Positions 1 to 8,237 of a stretch of DNA of 8,237 nucleotides are shown in pieces (position 1 is the stretch's first letter; each line of letters begins with the position of its first letter). The DNA lies in the UHGV virus genome UHGV-0217139; one strand, given 5' to 3'. The notes beneath the pieces were generated by a model. That model did not search any database, was not told the DNA's origin, and saw only the letters and a program-made list of their open reading frames with translations. This DNA comes from a virus. A program made the position numbers and the translations under genes.

Positions 1-126
1 GGCATAACCTGAATCTGAGGCAGCACCTGGCACGGCTGGGACGGAAGTCGCTGTCGTTTTCAAAATCGGTGGAGCTGCATGACAAAGTCATCGGGCATTA
101 TCTGAACATAAAACACTATCAATAAG

Positions 127-615
127 TTGGAGTCATTACCGGAAATCTCAACATTTTCAACTGTAAGAAACTTGTCCCATAGTCCACATAAGCATGTCCT
201 CCCTTTTGGTTTTGTTCAATCTCCAATACTTGCAACCCTCTGCTTAGATAAAAGTTATTTTGGTAGCTTACTACGCCGATTGAACAAACATCATGATCTC
301 AAGCTAAGTGTGTTTATGGATGATGTGATCATCTCGTCAAACGATTTGGCCCAATTACAAGCGGCTTACGACGAAGCACTAGTGGCAATGCGCAAATCTG
401 GTTATCAAGCCAACATGAGTAAAACTCAGGCACCATCGTCAAAGATTAGCGTGTTTAATTTAACTTTGAGTAAGGGAGTTATGAAAGTCACATCTCAGAA
501 AATGAGTGACTTCCTGATTGATTTCTATTCAAGCAATTATGAGCCGCACAGAATAGGGGTCAAAAACTACGTCGAAGCTGTTAATCCAGGGCAAGCGAAA
601 CTCTTTAAGTTGTAA
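127..615 (+). CDS. Reverse-transcriptase-like palm-domain fragment (motifs B to E only), N-terminally truncated; possibly a pseudogene
   Basis: Translation contains LPFGFVQSPILATL (RT motif B-like, LPQG...SP.L), then ~20 aa later SVFMDDVIIS (motif C, YxDD-like with FMDD), then KSGYQANMSKTQ and FNLTLSKG (motif D/E-like G..N..KT and FLG). No motif A is present; the frame is closed by stops at 103-105 and 109-111 and the first possible start is TTG at 127 with no convincing RBS. Composition is visibly AT-richer than the P4 core. Confidence 0.5.
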   Translation: MESLPEISTFSTVRNLSHSPHKHVLPFGFVQSPILATLCLDKSYFGSLLRRLNKHHDLKLSVFMDDVIISSNDLAQLQAAYDEALVAMRKSGYQANMSKTQAPSSKISVFNLTLSKGVMKVTSQKMSDFLIDFYSSNYEPHRIGVKNYVEAVNPGQAKLFKL

Positions 616-880
616 TTGCGATCGCATGTAGTAGCAACTGGGCTTGACTGAATGCCTGCCGCCATTTTGCCGCCACTACCAAAGAAAAAAGGGCTACGCT
701 TTCACGTAACCCCTTGATTTATTTGGGGGCTGGCGGAGTTTGAATAAATAATGTATTGCTTTGATTTTTAATGATTTTGTTTAATTCAGTTTTTGTGCGT
801 ATACCTAATCGTATACCAATGGCTGTAAGTTAATGTGAAATGAAAGCGCATTTTTACTTGGATTGATGCTATATCGTACA

Positions 881-1187
881 GGAAAAAAATTTTTTTTCGA
901 AAGAACTGTTCACACTGTTCACCTTTCTTTTTTCTCCTTTTATTTCAGAGTGATAGGTGGTGAATAATGGGTGAAGGGTGAACATTCGATTCTTCACCTC
1001 CGGCATTCTGCCGGTGTGACTCATACCGGTGATTAATCCCCCATACTGAAATCACACAGGGAGAAAAAAAAGTTTTTTTTGATTTGATTGTTCACACTGT
1101 TCACCTTTCGTTTTTCTCTTTTAATTTCAGTGTGATAACGGGTGAATATACGGTGAAGGGTGAACAGTGGATTGTTCACCTTCGGGG
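881..1187. repeat. crr: P4-type cis replication region (crr): two ~125-bp direct repeats (881-1003 and 1061-1187) with type I iteron octamers
   Basis: The two units are highly similar and start 180 bp apart. Each begins with an A/T tract (A7T8 / A8GT8) and carries TGTTCACAC-TGTTCACC (907-923; 1089-1105), inverted GGTGAA-type copies (956-983; 1140-1166) and a further TTCTTCACC/TGTTCACC (990-998; 1173-1180). As I recall, P4 crr is two 120-bp repeats separated by 60 bp that bind alpha protein via TGTTCACC iterons. Position just 3' of alpha fits. Confidence 0.75.
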
Positions 1188-1195
1188 GATGTCGG

Positions 1196-1223
1196 GATAA
1201 AAAAAGACCGGCAGATGCCGGTC
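1196..1223 (-). terminator. Rho-independent terminator of the alpha operon
   Basis: Inverted repeat GACCGGCA/TGCCGGTC at 1206-1223 (GC-rich stem, short loop) followed on the minus strand by a run of 7 U (plus-strand A run 1199-1205), 8 nt downstream of the alpha stop codon. Confidence 0.7.
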
Positions 1224-1230
1224 AGGTGGG

Positions 1231-3564
1231 TCAGGCTGTTGTAGGGTCGTCACATTTTGGCAGCCAGTCGCCGTAGCTTTCCTCTTTCAGCGTCAGGTTG
1301 GTCTGTATCCCCTGTTTGGTATGGCGCTTCTCGTAATTCAGCCCGTATTCCTTCAGCATCACCGGCAGCCCCAGCCCGAACATTTTCAGACTGAGTACAT
1401 TCCGGTAGCCGTTTGCCTCCATGTAGGCCAGATAGGCGTGATAGAGGTATTTACGGTAATTACGCGGGATGATACTGGCGTTCCCCATATACATGCCGCT
1501 GGTCTGCGGCAGGGTTTCCAGATAGCCGATAAAATCAAACGTCGGGTCGGCATCCCGTTTGATGTTCAGCGCCTCGTCTGAGTTCTGCTGGGACTGAAGC
1601 AGTGACCGGGCGAGCATCGGGTCGCTGAACTTCTGCATCAGGTGACGCACGATGACCGCCAGCTCGCGGGTGATTTTGTCCTTAAGCTGCGGGTCGCGCT
1701 CCTGCGGGGCTATCTGTTCCGGGAAGTGAATAATCACCCGCCGGCGTGACACGCCGCCGCTGCGGTCGGTGAAGCGCATCGGGTTATTGTTCACGGCCAG
1801 AATCACCGCCGGGATATGCGTGGAGTACGCATCCCGGTATTTCGGATCCACGGACACCGCATCGCCGCCGGTGATGGCCTTGAGTCCGGCACCGTCGCCG
1901 CTCCATTTTTCCTGGTCCGGCAGGCGTATCAGTGAGAAGCCAGTTAACGCGGCACGTTCACGCGGGGATTCCAGCGTCTCAATGGTGGCCGACGTGGCGT
2001 TATCCTCCCCGGCCAGCAGGGTGGCTATTTCGGCCATGATACTTTTGCCGCTGCCGCCGGGACCGGTCACCTCCAGAAAGAGCTGCCAGTCGTAGCGGTT
2101 TGCCAGCACCATAAACAGTGCGGCCAGAATCACGTCGCGTTTTTCCGCACGGCCACCGGCGGCACGGTCAAGCCAGCGCCAGAACGCGGGGGCGTGGGTT
2201 TCCAGCGTTTCCCCTTCCACCGGCGGGGTGAAATCCACATCGCACAGGGTACGCATCCAGTGTGACGGACTGTGCGGGTGGAACGTGCCGTTCTGCGTGT
2301 CGAGCACGCCGTTACGAAAGCCAATCAGGCAGCGGGAGGGGGCTTCCTGCTGCGGAATAATCAGCTTCAGGGTGTCCACCACGGAGGCCACCTTCCCGGA
2401 GGAGAACGGCGCGCGCAGCCGCTGAAACAGCCCGGCCACATCCCGGGCAAAGTCCTGTGGTGGCAGCACCTTCCAGACACCATTTTCATAACGGGACAGA
2501 AGCTGGCCGTTGGCATCGACCGCGAGCGCCTCGCCGTAATGCTCATAGATACGCATGGCCTTTTCGCTGGTACTCATGGCGGAAAACTCCGCTTCGCTCA
2601 TGGTGTCGAACGGGCTTTCAGCCGGTGGCCGGATGGCATCATAAATGGCCTTACGGGTGGCTTCCCCGCCGTACTGCGTGAAGGCATCATTCCAGTCACC
2701 GAAGACCGGCGGCAGGGCAACAACACCTTCACACGCATCTGCGGCTGCGGCGGCTTTTTTCTGGCCGTCACCGCTGAGGTCACGGTCAGCAGCAAGGACT
2801 ATCTGACAGGCCGGATGCTTCTGCCGGGCAAGGCTGGCCAGAGAAAGGAGGTTCACGGAAGAAAGCGCCACCATCACCGTTTCACCGGTCAGGTGATGTA
2901 CGGTAAGTGCGGTCGCGTATCCCTCCGCTATCCACAGACGTTTTCCGGCCTGATTCTGTCCTTCAAGGATGTGACAGGTGCCCCTGACCTGTCCGCCTTT
3001 CAGGGTGCGCTTACGGCCGTCAGCACTGATTAACTGAAGGTTAACCAGTGCGCCGCTGTCGTCATACAGTGGCACCACAAGGTCACCGGCGCGCCAGCTC
3101 ACGCCACCGGCTCTGTGTGTGCCGGTCAGCATCCGGCATTCCCGGCCGGGAAAGCCCTTGCGGGTCAGGTAGGCGTTACCGGTTCCGGGACGGGTTTTTG
3201 CCATCAGGGTTTGTGCCAGTGCGGCGGCGTTCTTCCGGGCAGCGTCTGTTTCAGCAACGGCGGCGGCCGTCACTGCCGGGTCAGCCGGGGGCAGACTGCC
3301 GGTCACGGCAGCCACCTTTGCGGCCGCGTCGGACGGGGAGACACCAAACACCTTTTCAACCAGTTTCAGGCCGTCACCGGCACCACACTGATTGCAGTAC
3401 CAGGTGCCGCGCCCCTCCCTGTCATCAAAACGGAAGCGGTCACTCCCGCCACAGACCGGACAGGGCTGATGACGGTTCTTCAGCACCTGAATCCCCAGCG
3501 CCGGGAGAATACGCGGCCAGTGGCCGAGCGCATGGCTGACGGTGGCGGTTACGTTCATTTTCAT
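1231..3564 (-). CDS. alpha: P4 alpha-type bifunctional DNA primase / helicase (replication initiator)
   Basis: 777-aa ORF. N-terminal zinc-binding primase motif CPVCGGSDRFRFDD...WYCNQCG and Walker A GPGGSGKS in the C-terminal half. RBS AAGGAGA 8 nt upstream of ATG. Length equals P4 alpha as I recall it (777 aa). Followed by crr iterons. Confidence 0.9.
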   Translation of the reverse strand: MKMNVTATVSHALGHWPRILPALGIQVLKNRHQPCPVCGGSDRFRFDDREGRGTWYCNQCGAGDGLKLVEKVFGVSPSDAAAKVAAVTGSLPPADPAVTAAAVAETDAARKNAAALAQTLMAKTRPGTGNAYLTRKGFPGRECRMLTGTHRAGGVSWRAGDLVVPLYDDSGALVNLQLISADGRKRTLKGGQVRGTCHILEGQNQAGKRLWIAEGYATALTVHHLTGETVMVALSSVNLLSLASLARQKHPACQIVLAADRDLSGDGQKKAAAAADACEGVVALPPVFGDWNDAFTQYGGEATRKAIYDAIRPPAESPFDTMSEAEFSAMSTSEKAMRIYEHYGEALAVDANGQLLSRYENGVWKVLPPQDFARDVAGLFQRLRAPFSSGKVASVVDTLKLIIPQQEAPSRCLIGFRNGVLDTQNGTFHPHSPSHWMRTLCDVDFTPPVEGETLETHAPAFWRWLDRAAGGRAEKRDVILAALFMVLANRYDWQLFLEVTGPGGSGKSIMAEIATLLAGEDNATSATIETLESPRERAALTGFSLIRLPDQEKWSGDGAGLKAITGGDAVSVDPKYRDAYSTHIPAVILAVNNNPMRFTDRSGGVSRRRVIIHFPEQIAPQERDPQLKDKITRELAVIVRHLMQKFSDPMLARSLLQSQQNSDEALNIKRDADPTFDFIGYLETLPQTSGMYMGNASIIPRNYRKYLYHAYLAYMEANGYRNVLSLKMFGLGLPVMLKEYGLNYEKRHTKQGIQTNLTLKEESYGDWLPKCDDPTTA

Positions 3565-3578
3565 GGTGTTGTTCTCCT

Positions 3579-3899
3579 TCAGTGCAGTACCGGCGCTTTT
3601 ATGTGACGGGCACAGAGTTCATCCATCACAACCAGCCCGAGAAAGGACAGCGACGGCGCGGCCTTCAGGGGGCCGGATTCCATTAAATCTTCCAGCAGGG
3701 CACAGGCTATCTGACGCCCTTTTTCCTCACCGTGCTGGCGCAGATAAAAGCCCTCCAGCTCAGCGGCGATGGCCGCCTCCAGTGATTCAAGGGTGAGATG
3801 CGGGTAGCGGTGCTGACGTTCGCACACGGTCAGCCAGGCACAGGCGACAGCACGACGGTAAAGGGCTGCGCGTAAGACGGGCGGTAAGGGTGTTTTCAT
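3579..3899 (-). CDS. P4 orf106-like small protein of the left operon (function unknown)
   Basis: 106-aa ORF directly upstream of alpha on the same strand; RBS GGGAGGA 6 nt before ATG; stop 15 nt before alpha start. Length and position match P4 orf106 as recalled. Confidence 0.6.
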
Positions 3900-4034
3900 T
3901 TGCTTTCCTCCCTGTGACAGATGACTGCATTCCGTGCCGGTTGCATTAACTGATAAGGCATATCTGCGTCTCCTGAAGACGTGCGTATCCCTGCGCGAAT
4001 ACGCACATTTAATTTTTCGGGTGTCGTTTTTTAA

Positions 4035-4490
4035 TTACAGATAATTGCGGTAACTGTTATCCGGGGTGATTTCCGGGTCAGGCTCCGTGCGGGGAATTTC
4101 CCGCCATTCCCGCGCCACCGGTGCCGCCCGGCTGACCGGAACAGGGTCCTGCGGGTAAATATCCAGATATTTCTCCCGCCATTTCTGTAATTCCGGGTCT
4201 CCGGCCATTTCTTTCAGTACCGCATGCCGGTTTACGGGGCTGCGTTTAAACAGGTCAGGACGGTCACAGGTAAATTCCCGCAGAAAACGCCCCAGCGGGA
4301 TGTCTGTGGTGCGCCCGTCGGCGAGGATACGCACAAGGATACTGAATTTACGGCGGTACGGGTTCCAGACAATGTCCGGGCAGCGGTACGGCATTTCCCA
4401 CGGAATACCGTCTTCCAGAATGCCGACCACGGCCACATCGGGAAAACCGGCAGAACGGTAAATCTCACCGGGCTGGGGAAAATCAAACAT
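4035..4490 (-). CDS. P4 orf151-like protein (function unknown)
   Basis: 151-aa ORF; its ATG overlaps the epsilon stop by 8 nt (operon coupling). Length and position match P4 orf151 as recalled. Confidence 0.6.
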   Translation of the reverse strand: MFDFPQPGEIYRSAGFPDVAVVGILEDGIPWEMPYRCPDIVWNPYRRKFSILVRILADGRTTDIPLGRFLREFTCDRPDLFKRSPVNRHAVLKEMAGDPELQKWREKYLDIYPQDPVPVSRAAPVAREWREIPRTEPDPEITPDNSYRNYL

Positions 4491-4770
4491 GCGTCCTGTC
4501 TCCCCGGTCTTTCTGCTGGGCGAGAAAATCGCGGCACAGGCCTTTGGCTTTCAGCTCATTCAGCACAAAATCAATATCTTCATTCAGGTAGCTGAAAATA
4601 TGCGGAATGTAGAGCTGATGCAGGCCGGAGAGTTCACGGTGAATCAAATCACCCCCAACAAACTGGGATACGGCGCTGGCGCGGTTGAGCTTATGGTAAG
4701 CCTCAATGCTGAGGTGTTCACAGGCGTCATGACGCGCTGAGACGGTCTGAGGGGCTTTTTTATTACGCAC
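4483..4770 (-). CDS. epsilon: P4 epsilon-like protein (helper-prophage derepression), GTG start
   Basis: The track gives a 175-aa ORF, but the in-frame GTG at 4770 has a GGAGG RBS 6 nt upstream and yields exactly 95 aa, the size I recall for P4 epsilon. The upstream in-frame part overlaps kil/eta in another frame. Confidence 0.55.
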
Positions 4771-4960
4771 GGGACACCTCCACCACCGGCAGACGGGCAG
4801 CAAGGGAGAGCACATAGTCACGGACAAAGGAACGGCGGGCACTGCGTTCATCACCGGCGACGGTGCGAAGCATACAGATACGGGGATGACGGTCTGCGCG
4901 ACGGACAGCCGCAAACACAAAGACAAATTCAGGGTGTGAGGGGGTAAGGGTTGTAGCCAT
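4763..4960 (-). CDS. kil: P4 kil-like 65-aa protein (C-terminal in-frame part of eta)
   Basis: ATG at 4960 preceded by a strong RBS AAGGAGG (7-nt spacer); 65 codons to stop at 4763-4765; overlaps the epsilon start by 8 nt. P4 kil is described as a 65-aa product forming the terminal part of the eta ORF. Confidence 0.6.
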
Positions 4961-5338
4961 AAGGCAGCCTCCTTCGAGTAGCAAATAACTGCTATCGCCG
5001 GAGTTCTCACGCTCGATGGCGATAGCCCAGACGGGGGTGAGAATACCGGCCTCGAAGAATACCGGCCAGCCCGGAGGCTGCCCCGCCTGAGCTACCATTG
5101 ACTCAGTGGCATAACATGCGATTGCGAACAGGATCATACCTGCACGGCAAACCACACGCCACACCATAATCTGGCGCTCTGTGGCGTTGATTGCGACACA
5201 AAAAAAGACGCATGGCGCGTCATATGTCGCCTTCGAGTTACACGGGTTCTCACGCCCGGCTGCCGATTTTGCGGCAACGGAAAGACTATATCCGCAAATG
5301 CCGGTCTGAGGATGAGTCTCCTGTGTCAGGGCTGGCAC
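4763..5338 (-). CDS. eta: P4 eta-like ORF (long form containing kil in frame)
   Basis: 191-aa ORF in the same frame as and ending at the same stop as kil; P4 eta is recalled as ~197-199 aa, starting upstream of the early promoter. The start codon is uncertain. Confidence 0.4.
4990..5300 (-). promoter_or_regulatory. P4-type immunity / early-left leader region (candidate P_LE, seqA/seqB/seqC-like motifs, CI RNA locus); boundaries unresolved
   Basis: Exact 10-mer GTTCTCACGC occurs twice (5003-5012 and 5246-5255), with a partly complementary GGGGGTGAGAATACCGG at 5033-5049. Hairpin GCTATCGCC(4991-4999)/GGCGATAGC(5018-5026) encloses the first copy in its loop. An 11-bp direct repeat GAATACCGGCC lies at 5041-5051 and 5057-5067. 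A -10-like TATAGT sits on the minus strand at 5285-5290. The pattern fits the P4 CI-RNA antisense immunity arrangement, but I cannot place the RNA ends. Confidence 0.35.
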
Positions 5339-5339
5339 A
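5322..5339 (+). promoter_or_regulatory. Delta/Ogr-type activator site (TGT-N12-ACA) at about -55 of the sid late promoter
   Basis: TGTgtcagggctggcACA; the dyad centre is ~82 bp upstream of the sid ATG, consistent with a transcription start near 5385 and a ~27-nt leader. P2/P4 late promoters carry TGT-N12-ACA centred near -55. Confidence 0.55.
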
Positions 5340-5359
5340 TCTGCAATGCGTCGTGTTGT

Positions 5360-5377
5360 TGTCCGGTGTACGTCACA
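5360..5377 (+). promoter_or_regulatory. Second TGT-N12-ACA dyad, ~38 bp downstream of the first (possible promoter-proximal Delta site)
   Basis: TGTccggtgtacgtcACA; centre ~17 bp upstream of the start predicted from the first dyad. I recall P4 Psid having a second Delta site near -18, but this is from memory. Confidence 0.4.
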
Positions 5378-5411
5378 ATTTTCTTAACCTGAAGTGACGA
5401 GGAGCCGGAAA

Positions 5412-6146
5412 ATGTCTGACAACACCATCCCTGAATATCTGCAACCCGCACTGGCACAACTGGAAAAGGCCAGAGCCGCCCACCTTGAGAACGCCCGACT
5501 GATGGATGAGACCGTCACGGCCATTGAACGGGCAGAGCAGGAAAAAAATGCGCTGGCGCAGGCCGACGGAAATGACGCTGATGACTGGCGCACAGCCTTT
5601 CGTGCAGCCGGTGGTGTCCTGAGCGACGAGCTGAAACAGCGCCACATTGAGCGCGTGGCACGCCGGGAGCTGGTACAGGAATATGACAATCTGGCCGTGG
5701 TGCTGAATTTTGAACGTGAACGCCTGAAAGGGGCGTGTGACAGCACGGCCACCGCCTACCGGAAGGCACATCATCACCTTCTGAGTCTGTATGCAGAGCA
5801 TGAGCTGGAACACGCCCTGAATGAAACCTGTGAGGCGCTTGTCCGGGCAATGCATCTGAGCATTCTGGTACAGGAAAATCCGCTCGCCAACACCACCGGC
5901 CATCAGGGCTACGTCGCACCCGATAAGGCTGTCATGCAGCAGGTGAAATCATCGCTGGAACAGAAAATTAAACAGATGCAAATCAGCCTCAGCGGCGAGC
6001 CGGTTCTCCGGCTGACCGGACTGTCAGCGGCAACACTTCCGCACATGGATTATGAGGTGGCAGGCACACCGGCACAGCGCAAGGTGTGGCAGGACAAAAT
6101 AGACCAGCAGGGAGCAGAGCTTAAGGCCAGAGGACTGCTGTCATGA
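5412..6146 (+). CDS. sid: P4 Sid external scaffold (capsid size determination) protein
   Basis: 244 aa from ATG 5412 with RBS GAGGAG upstream (the track ORF begins at an upstream GTG, giving 250 aa). N-terminus MSDNTIPEYLQPALAQLEKARAAHLENARLMDETV matches P4 Sid as recalled; coiled-coil-like composition; stop overlaps the delta start (ATGA). Confidence 0.85.
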   Translation: MSDNTIPEYLQPALAQLEKARAAHLENARLMDETVTAIERAEQEKNALAQADGNDADDWRTAFRAAGGVLSDELKQRHIERVARRELVQEYDNLAVVLNFERERLKGACDSTATAYRKAHHHLLSLYAEHELEHALNETCEALVRAMHLSILVQENPLANTTGHQGYVAPDKAVMQQVKSSLEQKIKQMQISLSGEPVLRLTGLSAATLPHMDYEVAGTPAQRKVWQDKIDQQGAELKARGLLS

Positions 6147-6643
6147 TTTACTGCCCGTCGTGTGGACATGTTGCTCACACCCGCCGCGCACATTTCATGG
6201 ACGATGGCACCAAGATAATGATTGCACAGTGCCGGAATATTTATTGCTCTGCGACATTTGAAGCGAGTGAAAGCTTTTTCTCTGACAGTAAAGATTCAGG
6301 AATGGAATACATTTCAGGCAAACAGAGATACCGCGATTCACTGACGTCAGCCTCCGGCAGTATGAAACGCCCGAAAAGAATGCTTGTTACCGGATATTGT
6401 TGTCGGAGATGTAAAGGCCTTGCACTGTCAAGAACATCGCGGCGTCTGTCTCAGGAAGTCACCGAGCGTTTTTATGTGTGCACGGATCCGGGCTGTGGTC
6501 TGGTGTTTAAAACGCTTCAGACCATCAACCGCTTCATTGTCCGCCCGGTCACACCGGACGAACTGGCAGAACGCCTGCATGAAAAACAGGAACTGCCGCC
6601 AGTACGGTTAAAAACACAATCATATTCGCTGCGTCTGGAATGA
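6143..6643 (+). CDS. delta: P4 Delta late-gene transcriptional activator (tandem Ogr-like zinc finger)
   Basis: 166 aa; two Cys4 zinc-finger modules (CPSCGH...CRNIYC and CRRCKG...CTDPGCG); translationally coupled to sid; same length as P4 delta as recalled. Confidence 0.85.
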   Translation: MIYCPSCGHVAHTRRAHFMDDGTKIMIAQCRNIYCSATFEASESFFSDSKDSGMEYISGKQRYRDSLTSASGSMKRPKRMLVTGYCCRRCKGLALSRTSRRLSQEVTERFYVCTDPGCGLVFKTLQTINRFIVRPVTPDELAERLHEKQELPPVRLKTQSYSLRLE

Positions 6644-6716
6644 GGGCTGCCGGTTAACACCGGCCGTCGCCGCACACCGTATTTTTATTCTTCAGCATGA
6701 TGAGAAAGAGATAACG

Positions 6717-7289
6717 ATGGAAAGCACAGCCTTACAGCAGGCCTTTGACACCTGTCAGAATAACAAAGCAGCATGGCTGCAACGCAAAAATGAGCTGGCA
6801 GCGGCCGAACAGGAATACCTGCGGCTTCTGTCAGGAGAAGGCAGAAACGTCAGTCGCCTGGACGAATTACGCAATATTATCGAAGTCAGAAAATGGCAGG
6901 TGAATCAGGCCGCCGGTCGTTATATTCGTTCGCATGAAGCCGTTCAGCACATCAGCATCCGCGACCGGCTGAATGATTTTATGCAGCAGCACGGCACAGT
7001 ACTGGCGGCCGCACTGGCACCGGAGCTGATGGGCTACAGTGAACTGACGGCCATTGCCCGAAACTGTGCCATACAGCGTGCCACAGATGCCCTGCGTGAA
7101 GCCCTTCTGTCCTGGCTTGCGAAGGGGGAAAAAATTAATTATTCCGCACAGGATAGCGACATTTTAACGACCATCGGATTCAGGCCTGACGCGGCTTCGG
7201 TGGATGACTGCCGTGAAAAATTCACCCCTGCGCAGAACATGATTTTTTCGCGTAAAAGTGCGCAACTGGCATCACGTCAGTCTGTGTAA
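6717..7289 (+). CDS. psu: P4 Psu polarity-suppression (Rho antagonist) / capsid decoration protein
   Basis: 190 aa; RBS AAGAG 6 nt upstream; last gene of the sid-delta-psu operon and directly followed by cos, as in P4; length matches P4 Psu as recalled. Confidence 0.85.
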   Translation: MESTALQQAFDTCQNNKAAWLQRKNELAAAEQEYLRLLSGEGRNVSRLDELRNIIEVRKWQVNQAAGRYIRSHEAVQHISIRDRLNDFMQQHGTVLAAALAPELMGYSELTAIARNCAIQRATDALREALLSWLAKGEKINYSAQDSDILTTIGFRPDAASVDDCREKFTPAQNMIFSRKSAQLASRQSV

Positions 7290-7453
7290 AATTCCCCGAA
7301 AACCCGCTTGTTTTTACTGAAAAAAGCCATGCATCGATAAGGTGCATGACTTTGCATGCGTTTTCCCGCCCCATTATCAACAAAACACGCCATTCCCGGC
7401 GCGGCCTGAGCGTGTCAGTGCAACTGCATTAAAACCGCCCTGCAAAGCGGGCG

Positions 7454-7472
7454 GGCGAGGCGGGGAAAGCAC
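7454..7472. other. cos: cos site: 19-nt P2/P4-type cohesive-end sequence
   Basis: Exact GGCGAGGCGGGGAAAGCAC, the 19-nt 5' cohesive end sequence of P2 and P4 as I recall it, located ~165 bp downstream of psu where P4 cos lies. Confidence 0.75.
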
Positions 7473-7780
7473 TGCGCGCAAATGTTGATGTGTTCAATTT
7501 TTTCAAAGTCTGAGAGCGCAATTGAGTTTGCTCGCTTCATCTACGACAATAAGTTAGAGTAGTGATTAGAAAGGGGAATGTTTAATATTATTGAGTTAAA
7601 GTTATTTTTGTGTTTTTGGATGACTCTATTGATGTGTTTATGATAGTGTTATTTTTACGGAGTGGATGGAGGATTAATTTCATTTAATGCATTAACATAA
7701 TGCATGTGTTTTAATGTGGCTGTTAAATATTGTGGCGGTTTTTTAGGCTATAAAAACATTTGTGTGCTTCTTATTTTTTT

Positions 7781-8237
7781 TTATTTATATTTTTGTGGGG
7801 TAATTTCAACATATGAAGAAGCGAACCATTCTACAGGTTTTTTGTTTTTCAATTCTTCTGTGTCAAAATTATCATCTGGTGTTGACCTAAATGTAATATA
7901 ATAAACGCCTGGCTTATTTAATCCAACAATATAGCTAAGGGTTTTTTCTGCTCCTATTAAAACATGTGTCTTTGATAATGATTTACTTTTTGATTCTGGA
8001 TAGTGTTTTTTATCTCTCAAAGATGTATAGAGATTTGGTGTAAAAGATTGAGATTGTTCAACTTTATCGCCATTTGCGCTTACTTTGTACACAGTTAAAG
8101 CTCCTTTGGATGTGTCAAAGGATAATGGTCGTTTGCCGTTATTTTTTATGGTTACATTAATAATCATTCCTAGCTGTGTTTTTAACGGGATAACATTAAT
8201 AGCAATACTGCTAGAGTCAGTGCCCTTAATTTGCTCT
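7781..8237 (-). CDS. 3' part of a cargo gene of unknown function in the post-cos variable region; 5' end lies beyond the window
   Basis: The minus-strand frame stays open from the window edge (8236) to the TAA at 7781-7783, giving 152 codons; the M at 8167 in the ORF track is internal. Very AT-rich codon usage unlike the P4 core. Sequence (…VYYITFRSTPDDNFDTEELKNKKPVEWFASSYVEITPQKYK) matches no family I recognise. Confidence 0.55.
   Translation of the reverse strand, partial: EQIKGTDSSSIAINVIPLKTQLGMIINVTIKNNGKRPLSFDTSKGALTVYKVSANGDKVEQSQSFTPNLYTSLRDKKHYPESKSKSLSKTHVLIGAEKTLSYIVGLNKPGVYYITFRSTPDDNFDTEELKNKKPVEWFASSYVEITPQKYK

What the first reader, a model, noticed from the sequence alone, without database searches (positions are those of the whole stretch)
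5322..5377. Two TGT-N12-ACA dyads 38 bp apart upstream of sid
Both dyads fit the P2 Ogr / P4 Delta activator-site consensus. The upstream one is positioned for a -55 site of the sid promoter and the second would then sit near -17. The first dyad also overlaps the putative eta start on the other strand, so this short interval may serve both divergent late promoters (P_sid and P_LL).
Basis: partly seen in the sequence, partly recalled or inferred. Interest (0 to 1): 0.4.

Follow-up and report, generated by a model that had tools for sequence, protein, structure and literature searches.

The report
Known P4 sid promoter activator sites
The two dyads are the already-described activator-binding sites of the satellite phage P4 sid late promoter, sitting in a P4-type prophage that has lost the neighbouring eta gene, P_LL promoter and replication origin, so the suggested sharing with P_LL does not apply.

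Summary
Both TGT-N12-ACA dyads are at the stated coordinates. Window 5299-5420 is 100% identical to P4 nt 9470-9591, the sid promoter, so these are P4's own dyads. With the -10 hexamer CACAAT (5374-5379) and an inferred start at 5386, their centres fall at -55.5 and -17.5. This is the same register as the mapped P2 P_O promoter. Dyad I is present in all 22 related Sid loci, always 52 bp from the -10 hexamer. Dyad II is perfect only in the P4-type lineage, which has a two-domain 166-aa delta. The 21 divergent relatives have TGT-N12-AGA and a single-domain delta.

The window lacks P4 nt 8719-9469 (751 bp). That segment holds the P_LE -35 hexamer, eta, P_LL with its own dyad, and ori. The loss is a TGCCGG microhomology deletion, also found in assembly GCA_005280595.1. 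Near-identical relatives are intact. The ORF starting at 5338 belongs to Pfam Phage_ASH and is read across the junction; it is not eta.

Verdict: already known and ordinary. The deletion is a minor curiosity.

The parts
5322..5339 (+). Site I: TGT-N12-ACA dyad (TGTGTCAGGGCTGGCACA), centred at about -55.5 of P_sid. This is the upstream activator (Ogr/delta) site.
   Evidence: Exact match. Identical to P4 9493-9510. Present in 22 of 22 related Sid loci as TGTGyCA-N4-TGsyACA. Always 52 bp from the -10 hexamer. Same register as P2 P_O.
5360..5377 (+). Site II: second TGT-N12-ACA dyad (TGTCCGGTGTACGTCACA), centred at about -17.5. Its ACA half lies inside the -10 hexamer.
   Evidence: Exact match. 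Identical to P4 9531-9548. Perfect in the P4-type sequences (P4, window, L003-L012, L014). The 21 divergent relatives have TGT-N12-AGA.
5356..5362 (+). TTGTTGT block at about -30 to -24. It is invariant in all 23 aligned sequences and contains the left TGT of site II.
   Evidence: Alignment conservation line.
5374..5379 (+). Inferred -10 hexamer CACAAT of P_sid. There is no recognisable -35, as expected for an activator-dependent promoter.
   Evidence: CA(C/G)AAT is conserved in 23 of 23 sequences. The consensus sigma-70 scan finds no complete promoter in 5150-5450.
5386..5386 (+). Inferred P_sid transcription start. It has not been mapped here.
   Evidence: It is 7 nt downstream of the T of the -10 hexamer. 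This position puts site I in the same register as the annotated P2 P_O start.
5412..6146 (+). sid (244 aa), first gene of the late operon. The ribosome-binding site GAGGAG is at 5399-5404.
   Evidence: Translation. P4 sid annotation. 94 homologues found.
6143..6643 (+). delta, the cognate activator (166 aa, two Ogr/Delta zinc-finger domains).
   Evidence: Pfam Ogr_Delta with 2 matched stretches. 164 of 166 residues identical to P4 delta.
6717..7289 (+). psu, the last gene of the late operon.
   Evidence: Pfam Psu, E = 9.8e-89.
5299..5304 (.). Deletion junction: a single TGCCGG copy where P4 and near-identical relatives have two copies flanking 751 bp. The lost segment holds the P_LE -35 hexamer, eta, P_LL, the Cox boxes and ori.
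   Evidence: BLAST breakpoints. Both TGCCGG copies are present in intact relatives L038, L039 and L041. The same junction is present in L040, assembly GCA_005280595.1.
5285..5290 (-). Orphaned -10 hexamer (TATAGT) of the early promoter P_LE. Its -35 hexamer (TTGCCT) was removed by the deletion.
   Evidence: P4 scan: TTGCCT-18-TATAGT at L001 4438-4409. No promoter-like site in window 5150-5450.
4763..5338 (-). It is the Phage_ASH-family frame over the CI RNA region, extended across the junction.
   Evidence: Pfam Phage_ASH, E = 6.9e-22, and no AlpA hit. Rfam C4 at 5015-5102, isrK at 5201-5278 and c4-a1b1 at 5239-5291 lie within it. No gene with this exact product is on record.

Best explanation
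The interval 5322-5386 is the late promoter P_sid of a P4-type satellite prophage.

Site I (5322-5339, centre about -55.5) is the upstream activator site. It is bound by the zinc-finger activators of the Ogr/delta family: P2 Ogr from a helper phage, or the element's own delta, which is encoded 730 bp downstream. From that position the activator recruits RNA polymerase to a promoter that has a usable -10 hexamer (CACAAT) but no -35. This switches on sid-delta-psu when a helper is present.

Site II (5360-5377, centre about -17.5) is a second site, specific to the P4 lineage, that overlaps the core promoter. Its role is modulatory and is not resolved here.

Shown here: the sequence identity with P4, the conservation, the invariant spacing, the presence of the activator gene, and the absence of a -35. 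Inferred: the transcription start at 5386, and activator binding in this particular element.

The interval does not serve P_LL. P_LL, eta and ori have been deleted from this element.
For: - Window 5299-5420 is 100% identical to P4 9470-9591.
- The window is 97.6-98.2% identical to P4 across alpha-cI and sid-delta-psu-cos.
- Dyad I is found in 22 of 22 related Sid loci, 21 of them with 55-66% Sid identity and from about 12 enterobacterial genera.
- The distance from the start of dyad I to the -10 hexamer CA(C/G)AAT is 52 bp in 23 of 23 sequences, while the distance from the -10 hexamer to the ATG varies from 27 to 35 bp.
- The P2 record NC_001895 annotates mapped starts and activator sites. These place the sites about 55-58 bp upstream of the starts, and P_O has TGTGTCAG at -64, exactly as P_sid does if +1 is 5386.
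- There is no sigma-70 consensus promoter in 5150-5450.
- delta is intact, with two Ogr_Delta domains and 99% identity to P4 delta.
- TGT-N12-ACA is cited as the consensus of the P2 late promoters, with Christie & Calendar 1985 and Julien & Calendar 1995 as sources (PMC3931495).
- From memory, not verifiable in the held library: delta footprints at -55 and -18 on P_sid (Julien & Calendar 1995; Reiter et al. 1998, whose reference is confirmed), and mutational proof that the -55 dyad is needed (Van Bokkelen et al. 1991).
Against:
- None of the four P2 late promoters has a perfect TGT-N12-ACA, so the consensus is loose and a pattern match alone is weak evidence.
- Site II is a perfect dyad only in the P4-type clade. 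It differs from the relatives by one base, at the least constrained position of the -10 hexamer. Its palindromy could therefore be incidental in sequence terms.
- The deletion removed a conserved block from about -88 to -120 (TTTTCCTG-N5-TTTTCCTGG...GCCGG). Any contribution of that block to P_sid is unknown.
Confidence: 0.92

Rival explanations
1. One reading: the interval is a shared control region for two divergent late promoters, P_sid rightward and P_LL/eta leftward. Dyad I would serve both, as one site serves P2 P_P and P_O.
For: P2 really does use one activator site (3057-3087) for divergent P_P (start 3016) and P_O (start 3127), each about 55 bp away. An ORF on the minus strand starts at 5338, inside dyad I.
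Against: - No eta homologue exists in the window, and no trace of the 751-bp P4 segment carrying eta, P_LL and ori.
- The minus-strand ORF belongs to Pfam Phage_ASH, not AlpA.
- In P4 and in 17 of 17 relatives, eta starts 538-561 bp from sid. In P4 and a close relative, P_LL has its own perfect dyad 111 bp upstream of eta.
- Ten loci with an identical Sid all have eta about 550 bp away.
Confidence: 0.02
2. Deletion-made hybrid promoter. The microhomology deletion brought dyad I next to the orphaned P_LE -10 hexamer (TATAGT, 5290 to 5285 on the minus strand). Ogr/delta bound at dyad I would then also drive leftward transcription of the CI RNA/epsilon/alpha operon, replacing both P_LE and P_LL.
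For: - The dyad is palindromic.
- P2 shows that one site can activate in both directions.
- The P_LE -35 hexamer is gone, so the leftward core now resembles an activator-dependent promoter.
- Dyad I lies only about 52 bp from the expected leftward start.
Against: - The spacing is 49 bp from the dyad start to the -10 hexamer, against an invariant 52 bp in 23 of 23 natural P_sid promoters. This is a 3-bp shift, roughly 100 degrees around the helix.
- There are no compensatory changes near the junction relative to intact relatives.
- The arrangement looks like a recent accident.
Confidence: 0.07
3. The dyads are chance matches, or sites for a host factor such as CRP (TGTGA-N6-TCACA), and are not phage activator sites.
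For: - TGT-N12-ACA specifies only 6 bases. The window holds four other matches that look accidental.
- 3.4% of random windows contain a pair within 60 bp.
- Dyad I resembles a CRP site widened by 2 bp.
Against: - The position, spacing and extended half-sites of dyad I are conserved across about 40% Sid divergence.
- The spacing between the TGTG and CACA blocks is 2 bp wider than in the canonical CRP site.
- The region is identical to the experimentally studied P4 promoter.
- Background density in related loci is 0.26 per kb away from this position.
Confidence: 0.02

Closest known systems
P_sid late promoter of satellite phage P4 (X51522 / NC_001609, nt about 9490-9560), with delta/Ogr sites I (-55) and II (-18)
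   Same: 122 bp around the promoter are 100% identical. The operon downstream (sid, delta, psu) is the same, with a 99% identical delta. The dyads and the -10 hexamer are the same.
   Different: The upstream context differs. The window ends P4 homology at about -82, where a deletion joins it to the P_LE leader. The conserved block at -88 to -120 and everything up to the P_LE -35 hexamer (eta, P_LL, ori) are missing.
The four late promoters of phage P2 (P_P, P_O, P_V, P_F), activated by Ogr
   Same: The activator site lies about 55-58 bp upstream of the mapped starts. The left half-site TGTGTCAG of P_O is identical to dyad I and in the same register. No -35 is present.
   Different: The P2 sites are imperfect dyads; none matches TGT-N12-ACA exactly. 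They have no second site near -18. P_P and P_O share one site, whereas P4-type elements keep separate sites for P_sid and P_LL.
P_LL, the divergent late promoter of P4 upstream of eta (ORF88), activated by delta/Ogr and by P2 Cox
   Same: In P4 it carries its own perfect TGT-N12-ACA (TGTAAGACAGCCTGAACA, P4 9133-9150) and a TCACAA-type -10 hexamer. Activation by Cox is described in PMC3936717.
   Different: It is absent from this window. In P4 it lies about 360 bp to the left of dyad I, beyond ori.
P_sid of other P4-like satellites (Klebsiella, Raoultella, Citrobacter, Enterobacter, Mangrovibacter and others)
   Same: Dyad I, the TTGTTGT block, the -10 hexamer and the 52-bp spacing are all conserved.
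   Different: These elements have TGT-N12-AGA in place of a perfect site II, and a single-domain delta of 67-87 aa instead of the 166-aa two-domain protein.

Membership tests
Ogr/delta-dependent late promoter (P2/P4 type) | Dyad of the TGT-N12-ACA type centred about 55 bp upstream of the transcription start | tested here: met
   Dyad I has its centre at 5330.5. The start is inferred at 5386 from the conserved -10 hexamer, which gives -55.5. This matches the register of the annotated P2 P_O start. The start itself is inferred, not mapped.
Ogr/delta-dependent late promoter (P2/P4 type) | Recognisable -10 hexamer but no functional -35 hexamer (activator-dependent core) | tested here: met
   CACAAT is conserved as CA(C/G)AAT in 23 of 23 sequences. 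The consensus scan finds no -35/-10 pair in 5150-5450.
Ogr/delta-dependent late promoter (P2/P4 type) | Drives a late or helper-exploitation operon, with a cognate Ogr/Delta zinc-finger activator available | tested here: met
   sid, delta and psu lie directly downstream. delta matches Pfam Ogr_Delta in two stretches and is 99% identical to P4 delta.
Ogr/delta-dependent late promoter (P2/P4 type) | The site is conserved in related elements | tested here: met
   Dyad I is present in 22 of 22 related Sid loci at -85 to -93 from the ATG. Background density elsewhere is 0.26 per kb.
Ogr/delta-dependent late promoter (P2/P4 type) | The activator binds the site, and transcription depends on it and on the RNA polymerase alpha subunit | not testable with these tools
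   Known for P4 itself from published footprinting and genetics, recalled from memory (Julien & Calendar 1995; Van Bokkelen et al. 1991; Reiter et al. 1998). These papers are not held in the library.
P4 P_sid site II (second delta site at about -18) | Second TGT-N12-ACA overlapping the core promoter | tested here: met
   5360-5377, centre -17.5, identical to P4.
P4 P_sid site II (second delta site at about -18) | Conserved among P4-like elements | tested here: not met
   It is a perfect dyad only in P4-type sequences. All 21 divergent relatives have TGT-N12-AGA. Only the left TGT, inside the invariant TTGTTGT, is universal.
P4 P_LL / eta divergent late unit | eta (ORF88, AlpA family) gene on the opposite strand | tested here: not met
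   tblastn with P4 ORF88 gives no significant hit. There is no AlpA or HTH_17 Pfam hit among the window ORFs.
P4 P_LL / eta divergent late unit | P_LL promoter DNA with its own dyad, the Cox boxes and the adjacent ori repeats | tested here: not met
   P4 8719-9469 has no match in the window. The ori type-1 repeats occur only in the crr region.
Single activator site shared by divergent promoters (P2 P_P/P_O type) | Two outward-facing cores, each with the canonical spacing from one dyad | tested here: not met
   The rightward spacing is the canonical 52 bp. The only leftward -10 hexamer (the orphan P_LE TATAGT) is 49 bp from the dyad, 3 bp short of a spacing that is invariant in 23 of 23 promoters.

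The most novel reading that the evidence does not exclude
The TGCCGG microhomology deletion removed the P_LE -35 hexamer, eta, P_LL and ori. As a result, the palindromic P_sid site I now lies about 52 bp upstream of the orphaned P_LE -10 hexamer. This could make a hybrid leftward promoter that is inducible by the helper phage (Ogr/delta-dependent). The immunity RNA, epsilon and alpha genes of this replication-dead prophage would then be switched on only when a P2-type helper is active.

A second, milder reading is that the perfect site II arose together with the tandem duplication of the delta zinc-finger domain in the P4 lineage, as a delta-specific control site.
Probability: 0.07. Interest if true: 0.4.

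Novelty: already known. Interest (0 to 1): 0.12.

Why it matters
The finding matters little as a discovery. The dyads are the textbook control sites through which a helper phage, or the satellite's own activator, switches on the P4 capsid-size and anti-termination genes. Here they are base-for-base those of P4.

The check has three practical uses:
- It shows that the "eta" label and the idea of a shared P_LL promoter are artefacts of reading an ORF across a deletion junction.
- It gives a comparative result: site I and its 52-bp spacing to the -10 hexamer are invariant across P4-like satellites, while a perfect site II is confined to the lineage with a two-domain delta.
- It flags this prophage as a recent derivative that has lost ori. 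It probably can no longer replicate, yet it keeps an intact helper-responsive sid-delta-psu cassette.

Tried and rejected
- Primary literature: Julien & Calendar 1995, Van Bokkelen et al. 1991, Lindqvist et al. 1993, Christie & Dokland 2012 and Reiter et al. 1998 are not held. Full-text searches found only secondary mentions. The published footprint positions and the mapped P_sid start are therefore cited from memory only.
- The junction 32-mer was searched in metagenome and viral contig collections: 0 hits.
- The 191-aa junction-spanning ORF was looked up by exact product: not on record.
- The 128-aa downstream ORF was found only on one 1-kb metagenome scaffold.
- ARAGORN found no tRNA or tmRNA in the window.
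- The repeat finder on 5280-5420 reported nothing with a seed of 6, because the dyad arms are only 3-7 bases long.
- A perfect P_LL dyad was sought in divergent relatives. It was not found with N12 spacing; they show TGT-N11/N13-ACA-like variants. This was not pursued, because P_LL is absent from the window.
- CRP was considered as an alternative binder and rejected on half-site spacing.
- An assembly artefact was considered for the deletion and rejected. The same junction occurs in an independent NCBI assembly that differs from the window at 7 positions.

Full report
**Observation.** An exact pattern search finds TGT-N12-ACA at 5322-5339 (TGTGTCAGGGCTGGCACA) and at 5360-5377 (TGTCCGGTGTACGTCACA). 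The starts are 38 bp apart, and both lie upstream of the sid ATG at 5412. The window holds six such sites against 2.06 expected. In random sequence of the same composition, 3.4% of windows contain a pair 60 bp or less apart. Statistics alone are therefore only suggestive. Identity and conservation carry the argument.

**What the window is.**
- Window 884-5304 matches P4 (X51522) 4291-8718. This covers crr, alpha, orf106, orf151, epsilon and the cI region.
- Window 5299-7453 matches P4 9470-11624. This covers P_sid, sid, delta, psu and the cos end. Identity across both matched blocks (884-5304 and 5299-7453) is 97.6-98.2%.
- Pfam confirms the alpha primase-helicase, DUF5375, the Derepression family (epsilon), Ogr_Delta and Psu.
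- Rfam finds the CI RNA (C4) at 5015-5102, isrK at 5201-5278 and the c4-a1b1 target at 5239-5291, all on the minus strand.
- The left end is an IS1 terminus (1-141) followed by a truncated reverse-transcriptase ORF.
- The region after cos (7454-8237) is not P4.
- This is therefore a chromosomal prophage of the P4 type.

**The dyads are those of P4 P_sid.** Window 5299-5420 is identical at every base to P4 9470-9591. In P4 coordinates the dyads are 9493-9510 and 9531-9548. Eleven further loci that encode identical or 99%-identical Sid carry both dyads, with 0-2 mismatches over 113 bp.

**Geometry.**
- The hexamer CACAAT (5374-5379) is conserved as CA(C/G)AAT in 23 of 23 aligned sequences.
- Taking it as the -10 hexamer puts the start at about 5386 and the dyad centres at -55.5 and -17.5.
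- The P2 record NC_001895 annotates mapped starts and activator sites. P_O starts at 3127 and P_P at 3016, and they share one site at 3057-3087. P_V has its site at 10239-10266 and its start at 10308. P_F has its site at 17555-17583 and its start at 17626-17628.
- Aligned on these starts, P_O has TGTGTCAG beginning at -64, exactly as P_sid does with +1 at 5386.
- The consensus sigma-70 scan finds no complete promoter in 5150-5450, as expected for an activator-dependent core.
It is an inference.

**Conservation.** I built a Sid alignment and retrieved 23 loci from one-genome-per-species contigs. Twenty-one of them have 55-66% Sid identity. They come from Mangrovibacter, Scandinavium, Enterobacter, Citrobacter, Kluyvera, Tatumella, Klebsiella, Buttiauxella, Raoultella, Superficieibacter, Pseudescherichia and one assembly labelled Vagococcus.
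- Dyad I is present in all 22 loci that have enough upstream DNA, as TGTGyCA-N4-TGsyACA.
- The background density of the pattern elsewhere in these loci is 0.26 per kb.
- The distance from the start of dyad I to the -10 hexamer is 52 bp in 23 of 23 sequences. The distance from the -10 hexamer to the ATG ranges from 27 to 35 bp. The constraint is therefore on promoter geometry, not on the coding start.
- Site II behaves differently. The left TGT lies in an invariant TTGTTGT block, but the right half is AGA in all 21 divergent relatives. The variable base is the third position of the -10 hexamer.
- A perfect site II co-occurs with the 166-aa two-domain delta (P4, the window, L014). All 21 relatives have a single-domain delta of 67-87 aa. 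This is one lineage, so the co-occurrence is suggestive only.

**Mechanism.** The following rests on established knowledge of the P2/P4 system. The TGT-N12-ACA consensus and its sources are confirmed as cited in PMC3931495. The Reiter et al. 1998 reference is confirmed in PMC13586616. The details are from memory.
- Ogr-family zinc-finger activators bind the -55 dyad and activate through the alpha subunit of RNA polymerase.
- P4 delta additionally protects a site near -18 on P_sid.
- The -55 dyad is essential by mutational analysis.

Given the base-for-base identity with P4 and an intact delta, the same mechanism is the best explanation here. Binding in this particular element is inferred, not shown.

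**The eta/P_LL claim fails.**
- The window lacks P4 8719-9469 (751 bp). BLAST breakpoints overlap in a 6-bp TGCCGG at 5299-5304.
- The missing segment contains ORF88/eta (8764-9030), P_LL with its own perfect dyad (9133-9150), the Cox-box region and the ori repeats.
- It also contains the -35 hexamer of P_LE. The P4 scan gives TTGCCT-18-TATAGT, while the window scan gives nothing.
- tblastn with eta, and blastn with the 751-bp segment, find nothing in the window.
- The minus-strand ORF starting at 5338 inside dyad I matches Pfam Phage_ASH, not AlpA. It is the long frame over the CI RNA region, read through the junction.
- In P4 and in 17 of 17 relatives, the eta start is 538-561 bp from the sid ATG. 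All ten loci with an identical Sid have eta at that distance.

**Is the deletion real?**
- None of 5426 complete E. coli genomes has the junction.
- Metagenome and viral contig collections have none either.
- A look-up of the window's exact alpha protein found NCBI assembly GCA_005280595.1, contig SZVK01000058.1 (L040). It matches window 65-8237 at 99.91%, including the junction, and differs at 7 positions elsewhere.
- Three other contigs with the same alpha protein (L038, L039, L041; 99.8-99.9% identical) are intact. They carry both TGCCGG copies flanking the segment.
- The deletion is therefore a recent, natural, microhomology-mediated event in an otherwise ordinary P4-type prophage. It should abolish replication from ori and cripple P_LE.

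**Residual novel reading.**
- After the deletion, the palindromic site I lies about 52 bp upstream of the expected start of the orphaned P_LE -10 hexamer. P2 shows that one site can serve two divergent promoters.
- However, the dyad-to--10 spacing on that side is 49 bp, against the invariant 52 bp.
- No compensatory change is seen near the junction.
- I give this about 7%.

**Verdict.** The feature is already known, and interest is low.

Noticed in passing
window 5299-5304 (junction); corresponds to P4 8719-9469 missing: A 751-bp deletion relative to P4 and to 99.8-99.9% identical relatives removes the P_LE -35 hexamer, eta, P_LL, the Cox boxes and ori. One TGCCGG copy remains where intact relatives have two. 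The same junction is in GCA_005280595.1, but in none of 5426 complete E. coli genomes.
   Followed up: yes
window 6143-6643 versus L015-L036 (delta ORFs after sid): The two-domain 166-aa delta and a perfect site II occur together in the P4-type lineage. All 21 divergent P4-like elements have a single-domain delta (67-87 aa) and TGT-N12-AGA at the site II position. This is one lineage only, so the association is phylogenetically confounded.
   Followed up: partly
L001 5150-5185 and the homologous columns of the alignment (about -88 to -120 of P_sid); absent from the window: A strongly conserved block lies just upstream of site I in all relatives: TTTTCCTG-N5-TTTTCCTGG...GCCGG, a short direct repeat. 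Its function is unknown. It may be the right edge of ori or an upstream promoter element. The deletion removed it from this element.
   Followed up: no
window 5356-5362: TTGTTGT at about -30 to -24 of P_sid is invariant in 23 of 23 sequences. A similar TGTTGC lies at a comparable position in P_LL of P4 and its relatives. It is not found in the P2 late promoters. It may be a core element specific to P4-type late promoters.
   Followed up: partly
window 1-141 and 127-615: An IS1 terminus abuts a 162-aa ORF carrying only the C-terminal part of a reverse-transcriptase domain (RVT_1 profile positions 110-197). IS1 probably truncated a retron-type or similar RT gene. The same 581 bp end several Klebsiella 'phage' records at 99.5% identity.
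   Followed up: partly
window 656-744: This stretch resembles the Fels-2 attP / ssrA 3'-end repeat (91-92% identity). Several P4-like loci with an identical Sid lie next to smpB. This suggests the element sits at the ssrA attachment site, in tandem with an older island remnant. No tmRNA gene is inside the window.
   Followed up: no
window 7454-8237 (ORF 7781-8167, minus strand): This is non-P4 cargo after cos, in the known defence hotspot between psu/cos and int. In L040 the corresponding gene is called as 217 aa and sits next to a DUF8426 protein. The window differs from L040 by a 1-bp indel at 7774. There is no Pfam hit, and the exact 128-aa product is otherwise seen on only one metagenome scaffold.
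   Followed up: partly
window 4022-4039 and 5225-5242: Two further perfect TGT-N12-ACA matches are created by substitutions relative to P4. They are shared with the near-identical relatives. One lies upstream of orf151 and the other inside the isrK/seqA leader. There is no positional or comparative support, so they are probably chance.
   Followed up: partly
L014 (URND01000141.1): A 6.8-kb contig labelled 'uncultured Clostridiales bacterium' carries a P4 sid region with 99% identity. It is most likely an Escherichia contig mis-binned into a metagenome-assembled genome.
   Followed up: no
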